Part shown: in pieces, positions 13,707 through 56,538 of the stretch
Layout of the letters: every line of letters starts with the position of its first letter
Position numbering within the stretch: position 1 is the stretch's first letter
Assembly: GCF_056712565.1 (NCBI RefSeq)
Contig: NZ_CM160072.1
Strand: one strand, 5' to 3'
DNA length: 64,000 bases
Made by a program: the position numbers and the translations under genes
Notes under the pieces: model-generated
Databases searched by the model: none
What the model was told of the DNA's origin: nothing
Seen by the model: the letters and a program-made list of their open reading frames with translations, nothing else

Positions 13707-13788
13707 GCGCCTCCATCGACACGGCGGATGTGAATCACTTCACACAAACAGCCGGTTCGGTTGAAGAGAAAAATCCTGAAATTCAGGG

Positions 13789-48507: not shown

Positions 48508-49212
48508 AAAAATGTTCCCGTTCAGGCCATGAGCACAGCATTTTCGTACTGCATACAAATACCGACAATACCGTTTCAGTGGCAGTTAGATAATGTAACC
48601 TTCCTTCTGTTGTGATCGGTATTCTACTCATGAAATAAAACATTAAAAGAACTATTTATATTTTTGAAAGAGATGTATCCTTCATTATTAATACATAAGA
48701 GTTAAATCAATTTGGTATTTATAGACTTAGTGAATATGATTTTACGGCTAATAAAGTTACATAATGCATTGATTTATATGTGTTTATTAAGTTGATTAAT
48801 AAGTTTTATGTATGGTTTTATAAATAAATTAATTAATTGCTAGAAATACATCATAAGAAATTCCTTTAAGGAATATCTTAATTGCGTGCCGGAACGATTG
48901 TGAAGTAAGTGTTGTAATGATTGATTTTTGAAGAAATTGTAGGTTTTTATGGGGGTAAGGATACGTTATGGATAATTCTACTGTTGATGTTGATATATTT
49001 TTAGCTTATGTAATCGTGTTCTGAAATTGACTAAAAATATATTTAAACACCATAAAAGAGTTTTTCGGTAGGTGCTAATTACGTGTGCCTGTAACTCGAA
49101 TAAAGAAAAGGGTGTGGTTCCTGATGTGAGCCGCATCACACTCTAACCTGTCGGGGATTAACGACGGGTTGTTCGTAAAACAGCAGTTGATAATTTCACA
49201 AGGAGTTCATAA
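48508..49212. promoter_or_regulatory. AT-rich divergent control region between tssB (minus) and hcp (plus)
   Basis: ~700 bp of strongly AT-rich non-coding DNA between the two divergent T6SS transcription units. Confidence 0.5.
49125..49140. promoter_or_regulatory. Candidate CRP-type binding site upstream of hcp
   Basis: TGTGA-GCCGCA-TCACA: both pentameric half-sites with 6-bp spacer, centred ~80 bp upstream of the hcp ATG. Confidence 0.3.
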
Positions 49213-49731
49213 ATGCCAACCCCATGTTACATTTCAATTACAGGTCAGACCCAGGGGAACATCACTGCCGGTGCTTTCACCGCAGATTCTGTCGGCAATA
49301 TCTACGTGCAGGGACACGAAGATGAAATGCTGGTGCAGGAGTTTCTGCATAACGTTACTGTTCCAACCGATCCGCAGTCTGGTCAGCCTTCCGGGCAGCG
49401 TGCTCACAAACCGTTCATTTTCACCGTGGCGCTGAACAAAGCCGTTCCGCTGCTGTACAACGCGCTGGCCTCCGGTGAAATGCTGCCGAAAGTGGAGCTG
49501 CACTGGTGGCGTACCTCTGTTGAAGGCAAGCAGGAGCACTACTTCACCACACGTCTTACTGACGCGACGATTGTGGACATGAACCTGCATATGCCGCACT
49601 GCCAGGACCCTGCACAGCGTGAGTTTACGCAATTGCTCGCAGTATCACTGGCCTACCGTAAGGTTGAGTGGGAGCACATCAAATCCGGTACTTCTGGTGC
49701 CGATGACTGGCGTGCACCGCTGGAAGCATAA
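49213..49731 (+). CDS. hcp: T6SS tube protein Hcp (TssD)
   Basis: 172-aa ORF, Hcp-like, preceded by AAGGAG RBS. Confidence 0.9.
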   Translation: MPTPCYISITGQTQGNITAGAFTADSVGNIYVQGHEDEMLVQEFLHNVTVPTDPQSGQPSGQRAHKPFIFTVALNKAVPLLYNALASGEMLPKVELHWWRTSVEGKQEHYFTTRLTDATIVDMNLHMPHCQDPAQREFTQLLAVSLAYRKVEWEHIKSGTSGADDWRAPLEA

Positions 49732-49740
49732 ATCTGAGTC

Positions 49741-49777
49741 AACAACATCCTGCCTCCGTGCAGGATGTTGTTTTTGT
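49741..49777 (+). terminator. Intrinsic terminator/attenuator between hcp and vgrG
   Basis: AACAACATCCTGC-CTCCGT-GCAGGATGTTGTT perfect 13-bp stem followed by TTTTGT. Confidence 0.7.
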
Positions 49778-53087: not shown

Positions 53088-54519
53088 CTATCATATCGGG
53101 GATGGTGAATGTAGATTTAGAGTCGTGTGTTCTTCACCAGATGTATGTGAAGTAGGAGGTTACAAGGTTCCTTTTGACAGTTACCAGACTTTAGATAGTG
53201 AAAGACAGTACAGTTCAACGGTATGGGCGCGTGGATGCAGAGCTTTAAATGTTGGTTCAGTGATTGCTGGAACTCAAAGTAATGCCGGTAAAGGTGTCAT
53301 ATCCGGTACATCTCAAGGAACGGGTGACTGTGTTATTTTAACGGGAAGTCCGACTGTAACAATAGAAGGGAAACCTGTTGCTTATCATGGTTCAGTTGTT
53401 GGGATTAATAACCACAACTGCCTTGGTAAATTGTATACCAAAATAAAATCACCAATGATTTCTGTCATTGATAGAACTTTTAATTATGAAAGGACTGCTG
53501 AAGTAATACACGATTTACTGCTTCTGAAGGATCTCCTCTCTGTTGGTAATATTTTTGACGGAGATATTTCACCTGAGGTTAAAAATGATTTATTTCAAAT
53601 AAAAGATCCTGACCAATCATGGGGGGAGTTTTTTTCAATAAAGAATATCAGAGAATCTCTCAGGAATGGTATTGAAGGAGATAAATCTCAGATCAGAGAA
53701 TGGTTTGGAGAGAACACACTTACTCAAATGGGGAATGGAGCAATCACCACTTTACATGGTGTGGCGGATTTAGCCTTAGTTACATTCGATGCTCTGTTAG
53801 ATACGGCAACGGCAACGGTTGCTTGCCCGATAGGCGAAGATGGGTTATGTGAACAGGCAAATATAAATTTAAATGAAAAAGAACAGGCTTTATTTAATAT
53901 TAGTAATTCATTGATAAATGGGCAAGCATGGGATGCACTTAAAAAAATGATAATGGATACAAATAATGGTGATCAGATTGCTCTGGTGCATTTTGCCAGC
54001 TTTTTATGGGGCTTTATGATACCCGCAAAAATACCAGAAGAAAATATCTCTGGGAAAGTATTTGTAGAGCCAGTAGTTTTAGAAGGTGGTGCTGGTGGCA
54101 ATTGGACAGTATTTGATGAGGTTTTAGATTCAAATGTAATAAAGCAATTGACTTTAACAGGCTGTGGAGCGGCCTGTGGGGAAATGTTGCTTAGGGATAG
54201 GTATATTTTTGTCACGCAAAATGTAATTGGAACAGAATTAACATCTATGACGTCGCTGGCAAACAAGCTTAATAAATTTGATGTCGGCTGGGAAGGGAAT
54301 GCAGTGAGCGAATCTAGTTTATATGCCCTCAGTAATACTGGTTCATGGGGAGCAATGATGTGGGATTCTGGAAGTAAAGTAGGGCATTGGGTACTTGTTA
54401 AGGGTGTTGATGATGCTGGGAATGTGATAATATATGATCCATATCAAGGGAGTCGATATCTGATGACTGAACAGGAATTTAAGGAGGTATGGAATGGGCA
54501 TAGTGTTTACAAACCATAA
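53080..54519 (+). CDS. DUF4150/PAAR-like T6SS effector with C-terminal papain-like cysteine-peptidase toxin domain
   Basis: 479-aa ORF; N-terminus carries DUF4150 motifs (SPDVCEVGG, SGTSQGTGD, GSPTVTIEGKPVAYHGS...NNHN); C-terminal ~130 aa has a Cys/His/Asp arrangement (GCGAACGEM ... GHWVLVKG ... IYDP); start overlaps the upstream gene by 8 nt. Confidence 0.75.
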   Translation: MGNYHIGDGECRFRVVCSSPDVCEVGGYKVPFDSYQTLDSERQYSSTVWARGCRALNVGSVIAGTQSNAGKGVISGTSQGTGDCVILTGSPTVTIEGKPVAYHGSVVGINNHNCLGKLYTKIKSPMISVIDRTFNYERTAEVIHDLLLLKDLLSVGNIFDGDISPEVKNDLFQIKDPDQSWGEFFSIKNIRESLRNGIEGDKSQIREWFGENTLTQMGNGAITTLHGVADLALVTFDALLDTATATVACPIGEDGLCEQANINLNEKEQALFNISNSLINGQAWDALKKMIMDTNNGDQIALVHFASFLWGFMIPAKIPEENISGKVFVEPVVLEGGAGGNWTVFDEVLDSNVIKQLTLTGCGAACGEMLLRDRYIFVTQNVIGTELTSMTSLANKLNKFDVGWEGNAVSESSLYALSNTGSWGAMMWDSGSKVGHWVLVKGVDDAGNVIIYDPYQGSRYLMTEQEFKEVWNGHSVYKP

Positions 54520-54784
54520 TATTGATTTGTTATCGGTTGAATTTGATGAGATTACAAAAAATTGTAATTACACTTTTAGTGTAGATGGAGAGACGGCTAT
54601 CTTTACTGCTAGAATATCAATAATAAGAAATATAAAGGGAATTAAATATAGCGAAGAACTTGATAAATTTATAATGTCAATAATGCCATTGCAGCCTAAA
54701 GTATCAAAAATTTTGGGAGGTGTTACTTGGGATTGTATTTGTGGTAAGGAAGTTGGATTTCCTGTGAGATTAATTGGTAAGTGA
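54494..54784 (+). CDS. Putative cognate immunity protein
   Basis: 96-aa ORF overlapping the effector 3' end by 26 nt, same strand, low GC; no signal peptide. Confidence 0.5.
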   Translation: MGIVFTNHNIDLLSVEFDEITKNCNYTFSVDGETAIFTARISIIRNIKGIKYSEELDKFIMSIMPLQPKVSKILGGVTWDCICGKEVGFPVRLIGK

Positions 54785-55041
54785 AGGGTGGTGAGGTATT
54801 TCTATATTTTTTTCGTGAAAGTCTTTAAAACTGAAATTATCTTGTTGGGAGCCCAAGGTGAGATCATAAAACGTATTATTTTATAAATATTGTTATGCAG
54901 GGAAAGGTCAAGTAATGCTGCTTTTTTGTACTAAATAATTCGCATTTTATGTTCAATAATTGAGGTGTTCCTTATTACCTAAAGCTGTTTTTCATTGCTT
55001 ATACATGATCAAATACTCATTGCCTAATTAAGGGGGACAAA

Positions 55042-55920
55042 ATGGAACTTAAAAAATTGATGGAACATATTTCTATTATTCCCGATTACAGGCAAGCCTG
55101 GAAAGTGGAACATAAATTGCCAGATATTCTATCTGTTAACTATTTGCGCCGTTATTTCTGGTGCATAATGCTGGGAAGATATAGAGGATTTGGGGAAACA
55201 CATCTCGATTTTTTGAAGTGATATGGTGATTTTGAAAATGGTATTCCTGTTCACGATATCATTGCCAGAGTTGTATCCTGTATCAGTCCTGCAAAATTTC
55301 ATGAGTGCTTTATTAACTGGATGCGTGACTGCCATTCCTCAGATGATAAAGATGTCATTGCAATTGATGGAAAAACGCTTCGGCACTCTTATGACAAGAG
55401 TCGCCGCAAGGGAGCGATTTATGTCATTAAAATCCGTCTTCATATTATTTGCGATGTCCCTGATGAACTTATTGATTTCACGTTTGAATGGAAAGAGCTG
55501 AAGAAATTATGCATGGCAGTCTCCTTTCGTTCAATAATAACAGAACAAAAGAAAGAGCCAGAAATGACGGACAGATATTATAGCATTTCTGCTGATTTAA
55601 CCGCAGAGAAGTTCGCCACAGCGAACCGAAATCACTGGTACGTGGAGAATAAGCTGCACTGGCATCTGGACGTGGTAATGAATAAAGACGACTGCAAAAT
55701 AAGAAGAGGAAATGCAGCAGAATTATTTTCAGGGATACGGAAGATCGCTATTAATATTTTAACGAAAGATAAGATACTCAAGGCAGGGGCAAGATGTAAG
55801 ATGTGAAAAGCAGCTGCGGACAGAGACTACCTCGCGTCAGTCCTTGCGGGGGCGGGCTTTCGTATTCTTGCTCTGCAAGGGATGATAAAAAGTGCAACTT
55901 TATTCCACGCAGCTATTTAG
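55042..55920 (+). mobile_element. Decayed ISAs1-family (H-repeat-associated) transposase remnant
   Basis: Fragments in several frames match an H-repeat/ISAs1 transposase: [26 protein letters not shown]..., [12 protein letters not shown]...[40 protein letters not shown], then C-terminal [21 protein letters not shown]...[31 protein letters not shown]; frameshifts plus an internal deletion of ~150 codons. Confidence 0.7.
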
Positions 55921-56034
55921 ACAGCGTACAGTAAACAAACGAAAGTTGTTATTTCAATGGTCAGGGCAAGAGCATGAAGTGTTTACTACACACTATGCTC
56001 TTGTCCTGGAGTCAGGTCTTGTTTGGAGGGATAA

Positions 56035-56538
56035 ATGGTAGATATTGTCGAGGCCGATAAAACGGATATTTATTTCATTCAGGAGAGTGTTTATGGCAAA
56101 ATCGGGTTGCCAGCTTTTGGTAATACAATAGGACCATCCGCACAGCAAGTTGTTAAAAAGGTATTCGCTGTCGTTAAAGAACGAGATAAGACACATGCAA
56201 AACAGAGATTATTGTTGGAATATAATGGTAACAAACTCTGGATGAATGCTATTGATGGCAGTGAAGCTATCCTACCAACAGAATTTTCTAAGCGATACGA
56301 ACTTTCATTATTCAATACTACTAATTTTGGAGAAGATCCTTTTCCTGATGTTAATTTATATAATAATATGAAATCAAGTTTTTTTGTAAGGTTTGGTGGA
56401 ACATCCCATCCCGAGGCTTGGGCTATTTATAATGCAAGTACGAAAGAGGTTAAATATATAGAAACTGCAAGAGAAATTGATAAAATATTCAGTGATTTTA
56501 ACTTGAGTGGTACATTGCCAATTCACATTGGTCAATGA
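56035..56538 (+). CDS. Hypothetical protein (orphan, low GC)
   Basis: 167-aa ORF with GGAGGG RBS, no signal peptide, AT-rich codon usage; no motif recognised. Confidence 0.5.
   Translation: MVDIVEADKTDIYFIQESVYGKIGLPAFGNTIGPSAQQVVKKVFAVVKERDKTHAKQRLLLEYNGNKLWMNAIDGSEAILPTEFSKRYELSLFNTTNFGEDPFPDVNLYNNMKSSFFVRFGGTSHPEAWAIYNASTKEVKYIETAREIDKIFSDFNLSGTLPIHIGQ

What the first reader, a model, noticed from the sequence alone, without database searches (positions are those of the whole stretch)
48508..49212. Divergent T6SS control region with a consensus CRP-like site upstream of hcp
The ~700-bp tssB-hcp intergenic region is extremely AT-rich, a likely H-NS silencing target. It contains TGTGA-N6-TCACA (49125-49140), matching both CRP half-sites exactly and positioned suitably for class I activation of an hcp promoter (candidate -10 GATAAT at ~49189). 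There are also inverted repeats (ATTCC-TTTAA-GGAAT at ~48861-48875) and a GATC next to a Fur-box-like AT stretch near tssB. This implies catabolite or iron control of T6SS firing.
Basis: partly seen in the sequence, partly recalled or inferred. Interest (0 to 1): 0.35.

Follow-up and report, generated by a model that had tools for sequence, protein, structure and literature searches.

The report
CRP site inside hcp leader DNA
The perfect CRP-binding palindrome between the E. coli type VI secretion genes tssB and hcp is real and has already been shown to bind CRP in a sister strain, but it most likely lies in the DNA that encodes hcp's folded mRNA leader, not upstream of a promoter, so it probably does not switch the system on.

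Summary
The window is an ExPEC (UTI89-like) E. coli chromosome. Bases 48508-49212 are the tssB<->hcp spacer of the aspV-island T6SS, called 'T6SS2' (hcp2B) in APEC/NMEC. The headline observation holds. TGTGA-GCCGCA-TCACA sits at 49125-49140, and the spacer is the most AT-rich 705 bp of the window. It is not new: the identical site, also 80.5 bp before the hcp ATG, is a published CRP ChIP-seq and EMSA target in EAEC 042 (EC042_0225). The class I activation model fails. The published 134-bp fragment (= 49093-49225), which carries the site and the proposed -10 GATAAT, has no promoter activity with or without crp. A longer fragment (49003-49237) is active and binds CpxR-P. Outside the E. coli lineage the palindrome is lost, while two RNA hairpins are kept, the second with compensatory changes. 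The site overlaps hairpin 1. It therefore most likely lies about +70 to +83 in the transcribed hcp leader. H-NS silencing is supported by published hns mutants. Fur/iron control is contradicted by published data, and the Fur box, GATC and inverted repeats are at chance level. New here: conserved GGA motifs in the hairpin-2 loop and at the Shine-Dalgarno sequence suggest CsrA control (unproven), and tssB has a conserved -10.

The parts
48004..48507 (-). tssB (vipA) coding sequence, first gene of the leftward structural operon
   Evidence: ORF and translation; RefSeq annotation of the 99.9% identical UTI89 locus
48508..49212 (.). tssB<->hcp divergent control region (705 bp, GC 0.315)
   Evidence: The same back-to-back layout, with a 370-1065 bp spacer (mostly 500-740 bp; GC 0.28-0.38), is found in 34 Enterobacterales loci
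48508..48614 (-). inferred tssB 5' leader (about 107 nt), with SD-like GGGA at 48519-48516
   Evidence: Inferred from the conserved -10; conserved blocks
48535..48574 (-). long-range stem in the tssB leader (ACGGU 48574-48570 pairs with GCUGU 48539-48535)
   Evidence: RNAalifold on 18 loci: 5 pairs, 4 with changes on both sides; coordinates. Moderate support only
48621..48626 (-). tssB sigma-70 -10 hexamer TAGAAT (read on the minus strand)
   Evidence: Positions 2 (A) and 6 (T) are invariant in 18 loci from about 12 genera, although three distant loci (L012, L014, L020) align poorly in this stretch; the other positions vary (TAGAAT/TAAAAT/TAATAT/TAGGAT/TAAGAT). The TSS at about 48614 is inferred
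48614..48617 (.). the only GATC of the spacer, at about the inferred tssB +1
   Evidence: not conserved in position in the EHEC-type spacer
48640..49002 (.). AT-rich core (GC about 0.25), most variable among E. coli alleles; presumed H-NS nucleation zone
   Evidence: H-NS dependence comes from the literature only
   Evidence: Found 320-365 bp from both genes in the window, E. whittamii, EHEC-type E. coli, Lelliottia and C. sedlakii (12-14 of 14 matches). The left arm ATTCC is not conserved
49003..49026 (+). segment needed for the CpxR-P band shift of the hcp2B promoter fragment
   Evidence: Yi et al. 2019, PMC6534853; primers mapped exactly
49027..49065 (+). candidate hcp core promoter and start region (TTGACT 49027-32; TATATT 49038-43 or CATAAA 49051-56; TSS inferred at 49050-49065)
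   Evidence: Inference. The active fragment 49003-49237 minus the inactive fragment 49093-49225 places the essential promoter DNA in 49003-49092. The hexamers themselves are not resolved
49111..49137 (+). leader hairpin 1 (GGUGUGGUUC / loop CUGAUGU / GAGCCGCAUC)
   Evidence: MFE fold. In 9 lineages 88.9% of cells are paired against 29-47% in slid controls. Changes are mostly G-C<->G.U, so covariation is weak. The hairpin is absent or weak in the more distant loci
49125..49140 (.). CRP-binding site TGTGA-GCCGCA-TCACA, centre 49132.5, 80.5 bp before the ATG
   Evidence: The identical site at the same distance in EAEC 042 is a ChIP-seq peak (score 111) and EMSA-positive
49146..49169 (+). leader hairpin 2 (ACCUGUCG / loop GGGAUUAA / CGACGGGU), with GGA at 49155-49157
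   Evidence: RNAalifold finds it unaided. 94% of cells are paired and 5 of 8 pairs have compensatory changes. GGA is in the loop in 16 of 18 sequences against 5.7 expected. The T49148C allele turns a G.U pair into G-C
49189..49194 (+).
   Evidence: It would start transcription at about 49201-49203, inside the SD. The fragment that contains it is promoter-less
49198..49205 (+). ACAAGGAG: Shine-Dalgarno sequence with the second conserved GGA (49202-49204)
   Evidence: Nearly invariant in 18 loci. GGA lies at -11 to -13 in all of them, mostly 44-49 nt after the loop GGA (range 37-49)
49213..49731 (+). hcp (hcp2B), first gene of the rightward hcp-vgrG-DUF2169-PAAR toxin operon
   Evidence: operon shown by RT-PCR in APEC

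Best explanation
The 705-bp spacer is the bidirectional control region of the ExPEC/EAEC aspV-island T6SS ('T6SS2'). Two outward-facing sigma-70 promoters lie about 110 nt (tssB) and about 150-165 nt (hcp) before their start codons. They flank a roughly 360-420 bp core of about 25% GC, through which H-NS probably silences both operons. CpxR-P binds just upstream of, or over, the hcp promoter. Each mRNA begins with a leader that is conserved across genera. The TGTGA-N6-TCACA element is a genuine CRP-binding site, but it lies in DNA transcribed into the hcp leader (about +70 to +83), over the loop and 3' arm of leader hairpin 1. Its left half is largely dictated by that RNA, and its right half exists only in the E. 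coli lineage. It is therefore not a class I activator site. Most likely it is one of the many CRP sites that are bound but transcriptionally inert or only weakly modulatory. Control downstream of the promoter more probably acts on the RNA: hairpin 2 displays GGA in its loop about 47 nt before the GGA of the SD, the layout of a CsrA-repressed leader. What is shown: the sequence features; conservation and covariation; and, from the literature on orthologous loci, CRP binding, a promoter-less 134-bp fragment, an active 235-bp fragment, the CpxR-P shift, hns derepression and no Fur/iron effect. What is inferred: the TSS positions, the inertness of the CRP site, and CsrA binding.
For: Identity of the locus: 100% and 99.9% matches to ZJ3920 and UTI89, with tssB and hcp annotated. 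CRP binding: EAEC 042 Table 1 lists peak 263739, score 111, EC042_0225, -80.5, TGTGAGCCGCATCACA, with a strong EMSA shift. I confirmed that the 042 spacer is the orthologue (91.7% identical, site centre 263738.5, -80.5). No promoter next to the site: p0225 is inactive in M182 crp+ and delta-crp, and also when inverted. Its primers map to 49093-49225. The promoter is further upstream: Phcp2B (49003-49237) drives lacZ, and the CpxR-P shift needs 49003-49026. The leader is transcribed and structured. Hairpin 2 has 5 of 8 pairs with compensatory changes and 94% of cells paired. Over both helices 84.9% of cells are paired, against 30-50% in slid controls. The many G.U pairs make the structure specific to the hcp-sense strand. 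Hairpin 1 is 88.9% paired in 9 lineages. The CRP core is not conserved: one mismatch in E. whittamii and Pseudocitrobacter, and no comparable site at that position in other genera or in the EHEC-type hcp3 leader carried by 2270 of 5426 E. coli genomes. In E. whittamii the change that breaks TCACA extends hairpin 1. The E. coli variant G49133A leaves the core intact and turns a U.G pair into U-A. Perfect cores are bound whether or not they regulate anything: the other perfect core of the window (13729, rrnH promoter/leader region) is also a ChIP peak with no known regulation, and about one in five EAEC CRP sites is intragenic. H-NS: the hns mutant up-regulates clpV2, hcp2A and hcp2B in APEC. 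CsrA lead: GGA is in the loop in 16 of 18 sequences against 5.7 expected, and at the SD in all. EHEC hcp3 and tssC are reported as CsrA-repressed (Wang 2017, as cited in PMC13141884).
Against: No transcription start site has been mapped for this cluster in anything I could read, so the '+70' position is an inference. The two reporter results come from different hosts and vectors (APEC/pRCL against K-12 M182/pRW50). The K-12 assay was done with H-NS present, and a CpxR- or serovar-specific factor could be missing. Given the RNA constraint on the left half, a perfect right half still has a chance probability of only about 0.5-1% (my estimate). The core is also invariant in the E. coli alleles I examined (5 aligned alleles plus strain 33E), and 542 of 552 genomes are identical over 49108-49145. 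However, the whole 250-bp hcp-proximal stretch is equally invariant, so this says little. Selection for CRP binding in E. coli is therefore not excluded. Hairpin 1 has weak covariation (shuffle control 148/500) and is missing in the more distant loci. CsrA binding is untested, and ACAAGGAG may be conserved simply as a strong ribosome-binding site.
Confidence: 0.7

Rival explanations
1. One reading: cAMP-CRP bound at 49125-49140 activates, by a class I mechanism, an hcp promoter whose -10 is GATAAT (49189-49194), so that T6SS expression follows catabolite state.
For: The core is perfect. CRP binds it in vivo and in vitro in EAEC 042. Hcp expression depends on cAMP-CRP in Vibrio cholerae (PMC2726435).
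Against: The 134-bp fragment with the site, GATAAT, the SD and the ATG has no promoter activity in crp+ or delta-crp cells. A start 6-9 nt after GATAAT falls at 49200-49203, inside AAGGAG, which would leave hcp without its SD. The site would then be at -68.5 to -70.5, off the class I positions -61.5/-71.5 (positions from established knowledge; arithmetic). No -35 was found, and the promoter scan reports nothing on the + strand here. The site is absent from orthologous leaders. In S. sonnei, which carries the EHEC-type cluster, changing glucose availability did not change the reporters.
Confidence: 0.04
2. CRP bound within the leader DNA acts negatively or architecturally. It could be a roadblock to elongation from the upstream hcp promoter, or a DNA-bending element that changes H-NS filament stability. 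Either way hcp would respond, modestly, to cAMP.
For: Binding is real. The site lies downstream of the inferred promoter. In the same study CRP represses two other EAEC-specific targets, kpsM and 0536. The core is invariant in the E. coli alleles examined, and 542 of 552 genomes are identical over the 38 nt that contain it.
Against: ChIP occupancy is low (score 111, with the authors' cut-off at 100). There is no conservation beyond the E. coli lineage. No expression data link crp to this cluster. The invariance in E. coli is shared by the whole leader.
Confidence: 0.2
3. A Fur/Dam epigenetic switch like that of the EAEC sci1 T6SS promoter: a Fur box overlapping GATC near tssB gives iron control.
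For: One GATC (48614) lies at about the inferred tssB start. GATAATG lies nearby.
Against: The best Fur-box match in the whole spacer is 12/19, and 92% of shuffles do as well. One GATC is fewer than the 1.6 expected. In APEC, iron limitation and fur deletion do not change clpV2 or hcp2B. The GATC position is not kept in the EHEC-type spacer.
Confidence: 0.03
4. The conserved inverted repeats upstream of hcp are DNA operators for an unknown dimeric regulator, or hairpin 2 is a transcription attenuator/terminator. In either case they are not RNA elements for post-transcriptional control.
For: They are inverted repeats in DNA. Hairpin 2 is followed by UUGUUCGU in E. coli and by UUUUUC in Pseudocitrobacter.
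Against: The arms co-vary while the sequence changes, which is the opposite of a protein operator. Frequent G.U pairs would be A.C mismatches on the other strand. The tail is not U-rich in most genera, and the terminator scan does not call it. The conserved loop element is GGA.
Confidence: 0.07

Closest known systems
CRP target 'EC042_0225' of enteroaggregative E. coli 042 (Microbiology 2025, PMC12360894)
   Same: The same element. The 16-bp sequence and the distance to the hcp ATG (-80.5) are identical, and the tssB-hcp spacer is orthologous (91.7% identical; 225 of the last 230 bp identical).
   Different: A different strain and spacer allele. The authors tested only a 134-bp fragment and concluded that the spacer may lack promoter activity. 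They did not note the leader hairpins or the upstream promoter.
APEC/NMEC T6SS2 hcp2B promoter region (Yi 2019, PMC6534853; Ma 2018, PMC5874247)
   Same: The same cluster and promoter; all published primers match the window exactly. CpxR-P binding, H-NS repression, no Fur/iron effect, and the hcp2B-xmtV operon are all reported there.
   Different: Those papers do not mention CRP, a mapped TSS, or leader structure.
EHEC O157:H7 T6SS-2 bidirectional promoter 't6sP' between tssB and hcp3 (PMC13141884; Kim 2022, not held)
   Same: The same back-to-back layout, a 696-bp AT-rich spacer, and H-NS repression. The hcp leader has both hairpins, GGA in the hairpin-2 loop, and the same SD context. hcp3 is reported as CsrA-repressed.
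   Different: TssB is only about 55% identical. There is no TGTGA-N6-TCACA (AGTGA-GCTGCA-TCTGC instead).
Class I CRP-dependent promoters (lac P1 type)
   Same: A consensus core that binds CRP.
   Different: No promoter at the required distance, no CRP-dependent activity in the published fragment, and a site inside a transcribed leader.
CsrA/RsmA-repressed leaders (E. coli glgC/cstA type; P. aeruginosa T6SS leaders bound by RsmA)
   Same: Two GGA motifs, one in the loop of a short hairpin and one over the SD, about 47 nt apart. ACAAGGA resembles the SELEX consensus RUACARGGAUGU (consensus recalled from my own knowledge).
   Different: No binding or genetic test exists for this leader. The resemblance is by sequence and layout only.
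EAEC sci1 (T6SS-1) Fur/Dam switch
   Same: An E. coli T6SS promoter region that contains a GATC.
   Different: No Fur box above chance, a single GATC, and no iron or Fur effect in APEC.

Membership tests
CRP-binding site | Inverted repeat TGTGA-N6-TCACA (22-bp consensus AAATGTGATCTAGATCACATTT) | tested here: met
   10/10 core positions at 49125-49140 and 14/22 over the full consensus by hand count. 2 perfect cores in the window against 0.06 expected
CRP-binding site | CRP-cAMP binds it in vitro and in vivo | not testable with these tools
   Published for the identical orthologous site in EAEC 042: ChIP-seq score 111 and a strong EMSA shift
Class I/II CRP-activated promoter | Site centred at -41.5, or at -61.5/-71.5/-82.5/-92.5, from a transcription start | tested here: not met
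   -68.5 to -70.5 from a start set by GATAAT, and +70 to +83 from the inferred upstream start. No TSS has been mapped, so this rests on inference
Class I/II CRP-activated promoter | Promoter activity that depends on crp | not testable with these tools
   Published: the 49093-49225 fragment is inactive in crp+ and delta-crp cells
Class I/II CRP-activated promoter | Site conserved in orthologous regulatory regions | tested here: not met
   9/10 in E. whittamii and Pseudocitrobacter. No comparable site at that position in the other 14 divergent-layout loci or in EHEC-type E. coli
H-NS-silenced horizontally acquired promoter region | AT content far above the genome background over several hundred bp | tested here: met
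   GC 0.315 (core 0.247) against 0.511; lowest in the window. The 10-bp high-affinity H-NS motif is not enriched beyond composition
H-NS-silenced horizontally acquired promoter region | Derepression in an hns mutant; H-NS occupancy | not testable with these tools
   Derepression is published for this cluster in APEC and for EHEC. I found no occupancy data
Fur box / Dam GATC switch (EAEC sci1 type) | A 19-bp Fur box overlapping the promoter and GATC sites | tested here: not met
   Best match 12/19 with 92% of shuffles as good; one GATC against 1.6 expected
Fur box / Dam GATC switch (EAEC sci1 type) | Iron- or Fur-dependent expression | not testable with these tools
   Published negative result for clpV2/hcp2B in APEC
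sigma-54-dependent hcp promoter (Vibrio/Aeromonas/Dickeya type) | TGGCAC-N5-TTGCA (GG-N10-GC) about 50-70 bp before hcp | tested here: not met
   No GG-N10-GC element and no match with 3 or fewer mismatches in the spacer. Clear TGGCA-N7-TTGC motifs are present upstream of hcp in the distant loci
CsrA-regulated mRNA leader | At least two GGA motifs, one over the SD and one in a hairpin loop, 10-63 nt apart (spacing range recalled from my own knowledge) | tested here: met
   GGA at 49155-57 (hairpin-2 loop; 16 of 18 loci against 5.7 expected) and at 49202-04 (SD; all loci). Spacing is mostly 44-49 nt, range 37-49
CsrA-regulated mRNA leader | CsrA binds the leader and changes translation or stability | not testable with these tools
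   Indirect only: EHEC hcp3 and tssC are reported as CsrA-repressed, as cited in PMC13141884
Rfam RNA families | A match to any curated covariance model | tested here: not met
   Only two chance-level hits at E = 0.26 and 6.4 in 48300-49400

The most novel reading that the evidence does not exclude
The hcp leader, and perhaps the tssB leader, of the tssB<->hcp type T6SS clusters of Enterobacteriaceae may be a conserved riboregulatory element that is not in Rfam and that I did not find described. A covarying hairpin presents GGA about 47 nt before an ACAAGGAG Shine-Dalgarno sequence, so that CsrA, rather than CRP, would link T6SS tube synthesis to carbon and stationary-phase physiology. In the E. 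coli lineage a CRP-binding palindrome has arisen on top of the DNA that encodes hairpin 1. It could add a weak cAMP-dependent roadblock.
Probability: 0.3. Interest if true: 0.45.

Novelty: already known. Interest (0 to 1): 0.2.

Why it matters
As handed over, the finding has little weight. The CRP site, the H-NS dependence and the lack of Fur control are all in print for this cluster, and the proposed activation mechanism is contradicted by a published reporter. Three things are still useful. First, combining two independent papers with the comparative data explains why the EAEC study saw 'no promoter': their fragment is all leader. The same combination locates the hcp promoter to 49003-49092. 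Second, it is a clean example of a perfect, occupied CRP site that is probably not a switch. Third, the conserved leader hairpins and GGA motifs give a concrete, testable handle on why several groups see T6SS-2 mRNA without protein.

Tried and rejected
- Rfam scan of 48300-49400 at permissive E-values: nothing.
- Sigma-70 and terminator consensus scan: 3 promoter-like hits against 4.6 expected, none on the + strand near hcp.
- Sigma-54 scan: nothing in the spacer. The whole-window pattern search was uninformative.
- Fur, H-NS 10-mer and CpxR consensus scoring, GATC counts and inverted-repeat counts against dinucleotide shuffles: all at chance.
- Covariance model R1 of the hcp leader, searched over 82 sources: it recovered only the hcp leaders of divergent-layout loci, and one copy in the window. 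There were no extra copies, for example before the second hcp.
- Alignment of the hcp promoter-proximal 130 bp across genera: too AT-rich and too divergent to fix the -10/-35.
- A possible SD-sequestering hairpin (AAUUUC/GGAGUU) appears in the E. coli MFE fold, but from reading the sequences it is not conserved beyond the closest relatives. I dropped the RNA-thermometer idea.
- Papers I could not obtain: Kim et al. 2022 (TSS mapping of the EHEC divergent promoter), Journet & Cascales 2016, and the dRNA-seq supplements of Sy et al. 2020. No mapped TSS was therefore available.
Full report
WHAT THE REGION IS. The window matches E. coli ZJ3920 at 100% and UTI89 at 99.9%. RefSeq annotates tssB on one side of the region and an Hcp-family gene on the other. 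tssB runs leftward from 48507 and heads tssC-E-F-G-tagH-J-K-L-clpV...hcp. hcp runs rightward from 49213 and heads vgrG, DUF2169 and a PAAR toxin. This is the aspV-island cluster that the APEC/NMEC literature calls T6SS2, with this hcp named hcp2B. All published hcp2B and vipA primers match the window exactly. The segment is present in 552 of 5426 complete E. coli genomes.

CHECKING THE OBSERVATION. TGTGAGCCGCATCACA is at 49125-49140. The window holds two perfect TGTGA-N6-TCACA cores, against 0.06 expected. The spacer has 31.5% GC and its core 24.7%, against 51% for the window. It is the most AT-rich 705 bp in the 64 kb. The lesser items are real letters but carry no signal. There are seven inverted repeats with 5-bp arms against 7.4 expected, and one GATC against 1.6 expected. 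The best Fur-box match is 12/19, and 92% of shuffles do as well.

THE CRP SITE IS ALREADY PUBLISHED. A 2025 ChIP-seq study of CRP in EAEC 042 lists, among nine chromosomal targets absent from K-12, peak centre 263739 with score 111. [quoted passage not shown] The distance to the start codon is -80.5 and the site is TGTGAGCCGCATCACA. It is one of six targets that gave a strong shift with purified CRP (PMC12360894). I fetched the 042 locus to check orthology. The tssB-hcp spacer is 91.7% identical to the window and the last 230 bp are 225/230 identical. The palindrome is centred at 263738.5, 80.5 bp before the same Hcp protein, WP_001142963.1. The claim that CRP binds here is therefore sound, and it is not new.

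THE ACTIVATION MODEL FAILS. The same paper cloned the target into pRW50 and found no promoter activity in M182 or M182 delta-crp, in either orientation. The only EC042_0225 primers listed map to window 49093-49116 and about 49208-49225. By contrast, Yi et al. 2019 found lacZ activity with a fragment that maps to 49003-49237. They also showed a CpxR-P band shift that is lost when 49003-49026 is removed. Taken together, essential hcp promoter DNA lies in 49003-49092. The caveat is that the two studies used different hosts and vectors. Geometry argues the same way. A start 6-9 nt after GATAAT (49189-94) falls at 49200-49203, inside AAGGAG, and puts CRP at -68.5 to -70.5 rather than at a class I position (the class I positions are established knowledge).

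COMPARATIVE EVIDENCE. A scan of one genome per species with Hcp returned 80 loci. In 34 of them tssB lies back to back with hcp, across a spacer of 370-1065 bp (mostly 500-740 bp) with 28-38% GC. The layout and the AT-rich spacer are thus ancestral to this T6SS type in Enterobacterales. The CRP core is not. E. whittamii has TCGCA and Pseudocitrobacter has AGTGA. The other genera have no comparable site at that position, and neither does the EHEC-type hcp3 leader, which is carried by 2270 of 5426 E. coli genomes. What is conserved in the last ~105 nt before hcp is secondary structure.

Hairpin 2 (49146-53 / 49162-69) is found by RNAalifold unaided. It has 94% of cells paired, and 5 of 8 pairs show changes on both sides. 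Over both helices 84.9% of cells are paired, against 30-50% when the partners are slid by 1-3 columns.

Hairpin 1 (49111-20 / 49128-37) is predicted in about nine lineages. There it is 88.9% paired, against 29-47% in slid controls. Its variation is mostly G-C<->G.U, so covariation proper is weak (148 of 500 shuffles reach the observed score).

The frequent G.U pairs make both helices specific to the hcp-sense strand, which points to RNA rather than a DNA operator. The CRP palindrome occupies the loop and 3' arm of hairpin 1. Its left half (GTGAGCYGCAU) is part of the conserved RNA, and only the right half is peculiar to E. coli. In E. whittamii the substitution that spoils TCACA extends the hairpin. 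The only E. coli variant I examined, G49133A, lies in the N6 spacer and turns a U.G pair into U-A. These data place the transcription start upstream of 49111. That agrees with the reporter arithmetic and puts the CRP centre at roughly +70 to +83.

IS THE BOUND SITE FUNCTIONAL? The other perfect core in the window (13729) lies between the two promoter-like elements just upstream of the rRNA operon, downstream of gmhB. It is also a ChIP peak in EAEC 042 (score 583) and is flagged as having no known regulation. The same sequence upstream of purH scores 2044. The authors note that about one CRP site in five is intragenic and unlikely to regulate anything. The T6SS site scores 111, just above their cut-off of 100. 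I therefore rate an 'occupied but inert or weakly modulatory' site as most likely. A roadblock or architectural role gets about 0.2 and class I activation about 0.04. Selection for the site in E. coli cannot be excluded. Given the RNA constraint, the right half would arise by chance only about once in 100-250 tries (my estimate). The core is also intact in every allele I examined, and 542 of 552 genomes are identical over 49108-49145. However, the whole 250-bp hcp-proximal stretch is just as invariant.

H-NS AND FUR. For this very cluster in APEC, hns inactivation raises clpV2, hcp2A and hcp2B, whereas iron limitation and fur deletion do not affect clpV2 or hcp2B (PMC5874247). The EHEC relative is also H-NS-repressed. 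In S. sonnei, software-predicted CRP and H-NS sites in the homologous spacer did not translate into glucose or temperature effects on reporters. It is supported genetically, but I found no occupancy data. The iron idea does not stand.

OTHER FEATURES OF THE SPACER. On the tssB side, an alignment of 18 loci shows a -10 hexamer (TAGAAT, 48626-48621 on the minus strand). Its two diagnostic positions, A2 and T6, are the only invariant bases in that stretch, although three distant loci align poorly there. This implies a start near 48614 and a leader of about 107 nt. The leader has a long-range stem (5 pairs, 4 with double changes; moderate support) and a GGA-containing SD. Upstream of the -10 are blocks conserved across genera: GAATAC-N4-CTTT ... 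AAAAAG-NN-CTTTT. In mid-spacer, TTTAAGGAATATCT (48865-78) is conserved in position in several genera.

A MECHANISTIC LEAD. The one conserved feature of the hairpin-2 loop is GGA, present in 16 of 18 sequences against 5.7 expected from composition. The loop is otherwise variable. The SD context ACAAGGAG is nearly invariant, with its GGA mostly 44-49 nt downstream of the loop GGA. That is the layout of CsrA-repressed leaders (consensus and spacing rule recalled from my own knowledge). EHEC hcp3 and tssC have been reported as CsrA-repressed, according to PMC13141884. No Rfam family matches. I give CsrA control of this leader a probability of about 0.3-0.35. It is the only part of the analysis that goes beyond the literature I could read.

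VERDICT. The proposed mechanism is not supported: neither class I activation from GATAAT nor Fur/iron control holds up. The finding is already known and its interest is low.

Noticed in passing
window 13729-13744: The window's second perfect CRP core, TGTGAATCACTTCACA. It lies downstream of gmhB, between two promoter-like elements (...CTATAATGCGCC... and TTGACT...TAATAT) just upstream of what I take to be the rrnH rRNA operon (not annotated here). The same sequence is a CRP ChIP-seq peak in EAEC 042 (score 583, and 2044 for the copy upstream of purH), flagged as not known to be regulated.
   Followed up: partly
window 49741-49772: A 13-bp perfect hairpin (AACAACAUCCUGC / GCAGGAUGUUGUU) starts 10 nt after the hcp stop codon and is followed by UUUGU (z = -3.1 against shuffles). 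It resembles 'region I' of the EHEC hcp3-vgrG3 regulatory spacer h3R, which terminates transcription and stabilises hcp3 mRNA. The consensus terminator scan missed it.
   Followed up: partly
window 48865-48878; L007, L087, L018, L024, L010 at mid-spacer: The motif TTTAAGGAATATCT is conserved in sequence and in position (320-365 bp from both start codons) across several genera. Nothing known is assigned to it.
   Followed up: partly
window 48640-48690 (minus strand), and the same place in L007-L024 and L087: Upstream of the conserved tssB -10 there are blocks shared across genera: GAATAC-N4-CTTT, then 8-10 nt, then AAAAAG-NN-CTTTT. They look like a binding site for a conserved regulator or an UP-like element.
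   Followed up: no
L010, L011, L013, L015, L018, L020, L087, about 270-290 bp before hcp: The motif AATATTTATTCATGA recurs at a similar distance upstream of hcp in many genera. I did not spot it in the window's allele by eye (no formal search).
   Followed up: no
L057, L083, L084 (perfect) and L082 (1 mismatch), about 285 bp before hcp; Dickeya: Dickeya hcp paralogues carry a TGTGA-N6-TCACA core at a conserved distance. They also have a clear sigma-54-type TGGCA-N7-TTGC element about 60 bp before the ATG. CRP control of hcp may be real in that genus.
   Followed up: no
L048-L086 (Halomonas and relatives, Aeromonas, Photobacterium, Dickeya): Most distant hcp loci show TGGCAC/TGGCAT-N5-7-TGC(T/C) sigma-54 promoter motifs 50-70 bp before the ATG. 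The Enterobacteriaceae divergent-layout loci have none.
   Followed up: partly
L006 (E. coli SCU-176, NZ_CP054345 3424160-3430389): A second copy of hcp plus a truncated vgrG is bracketed by two IS1A elements next to another T6SS gene set. Homology to the window starts at 49071, so the IS1 junction keeps the whole structured leader but removes the inferred promoter.
   Followed up: no
L087 129-353: EHEC-type clusters have an annotated 74-aa hypothetical ORF between tssC and tssB that is absent from the window's cluster.
   Followed up: no
window 54200-54900 and 55900-56400: Further low-GC patches (0.32-0.35) lie downstream of the PAAR toxin gene, in the effector/immunity and IS-remnant part of the island.
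   Followed up: no
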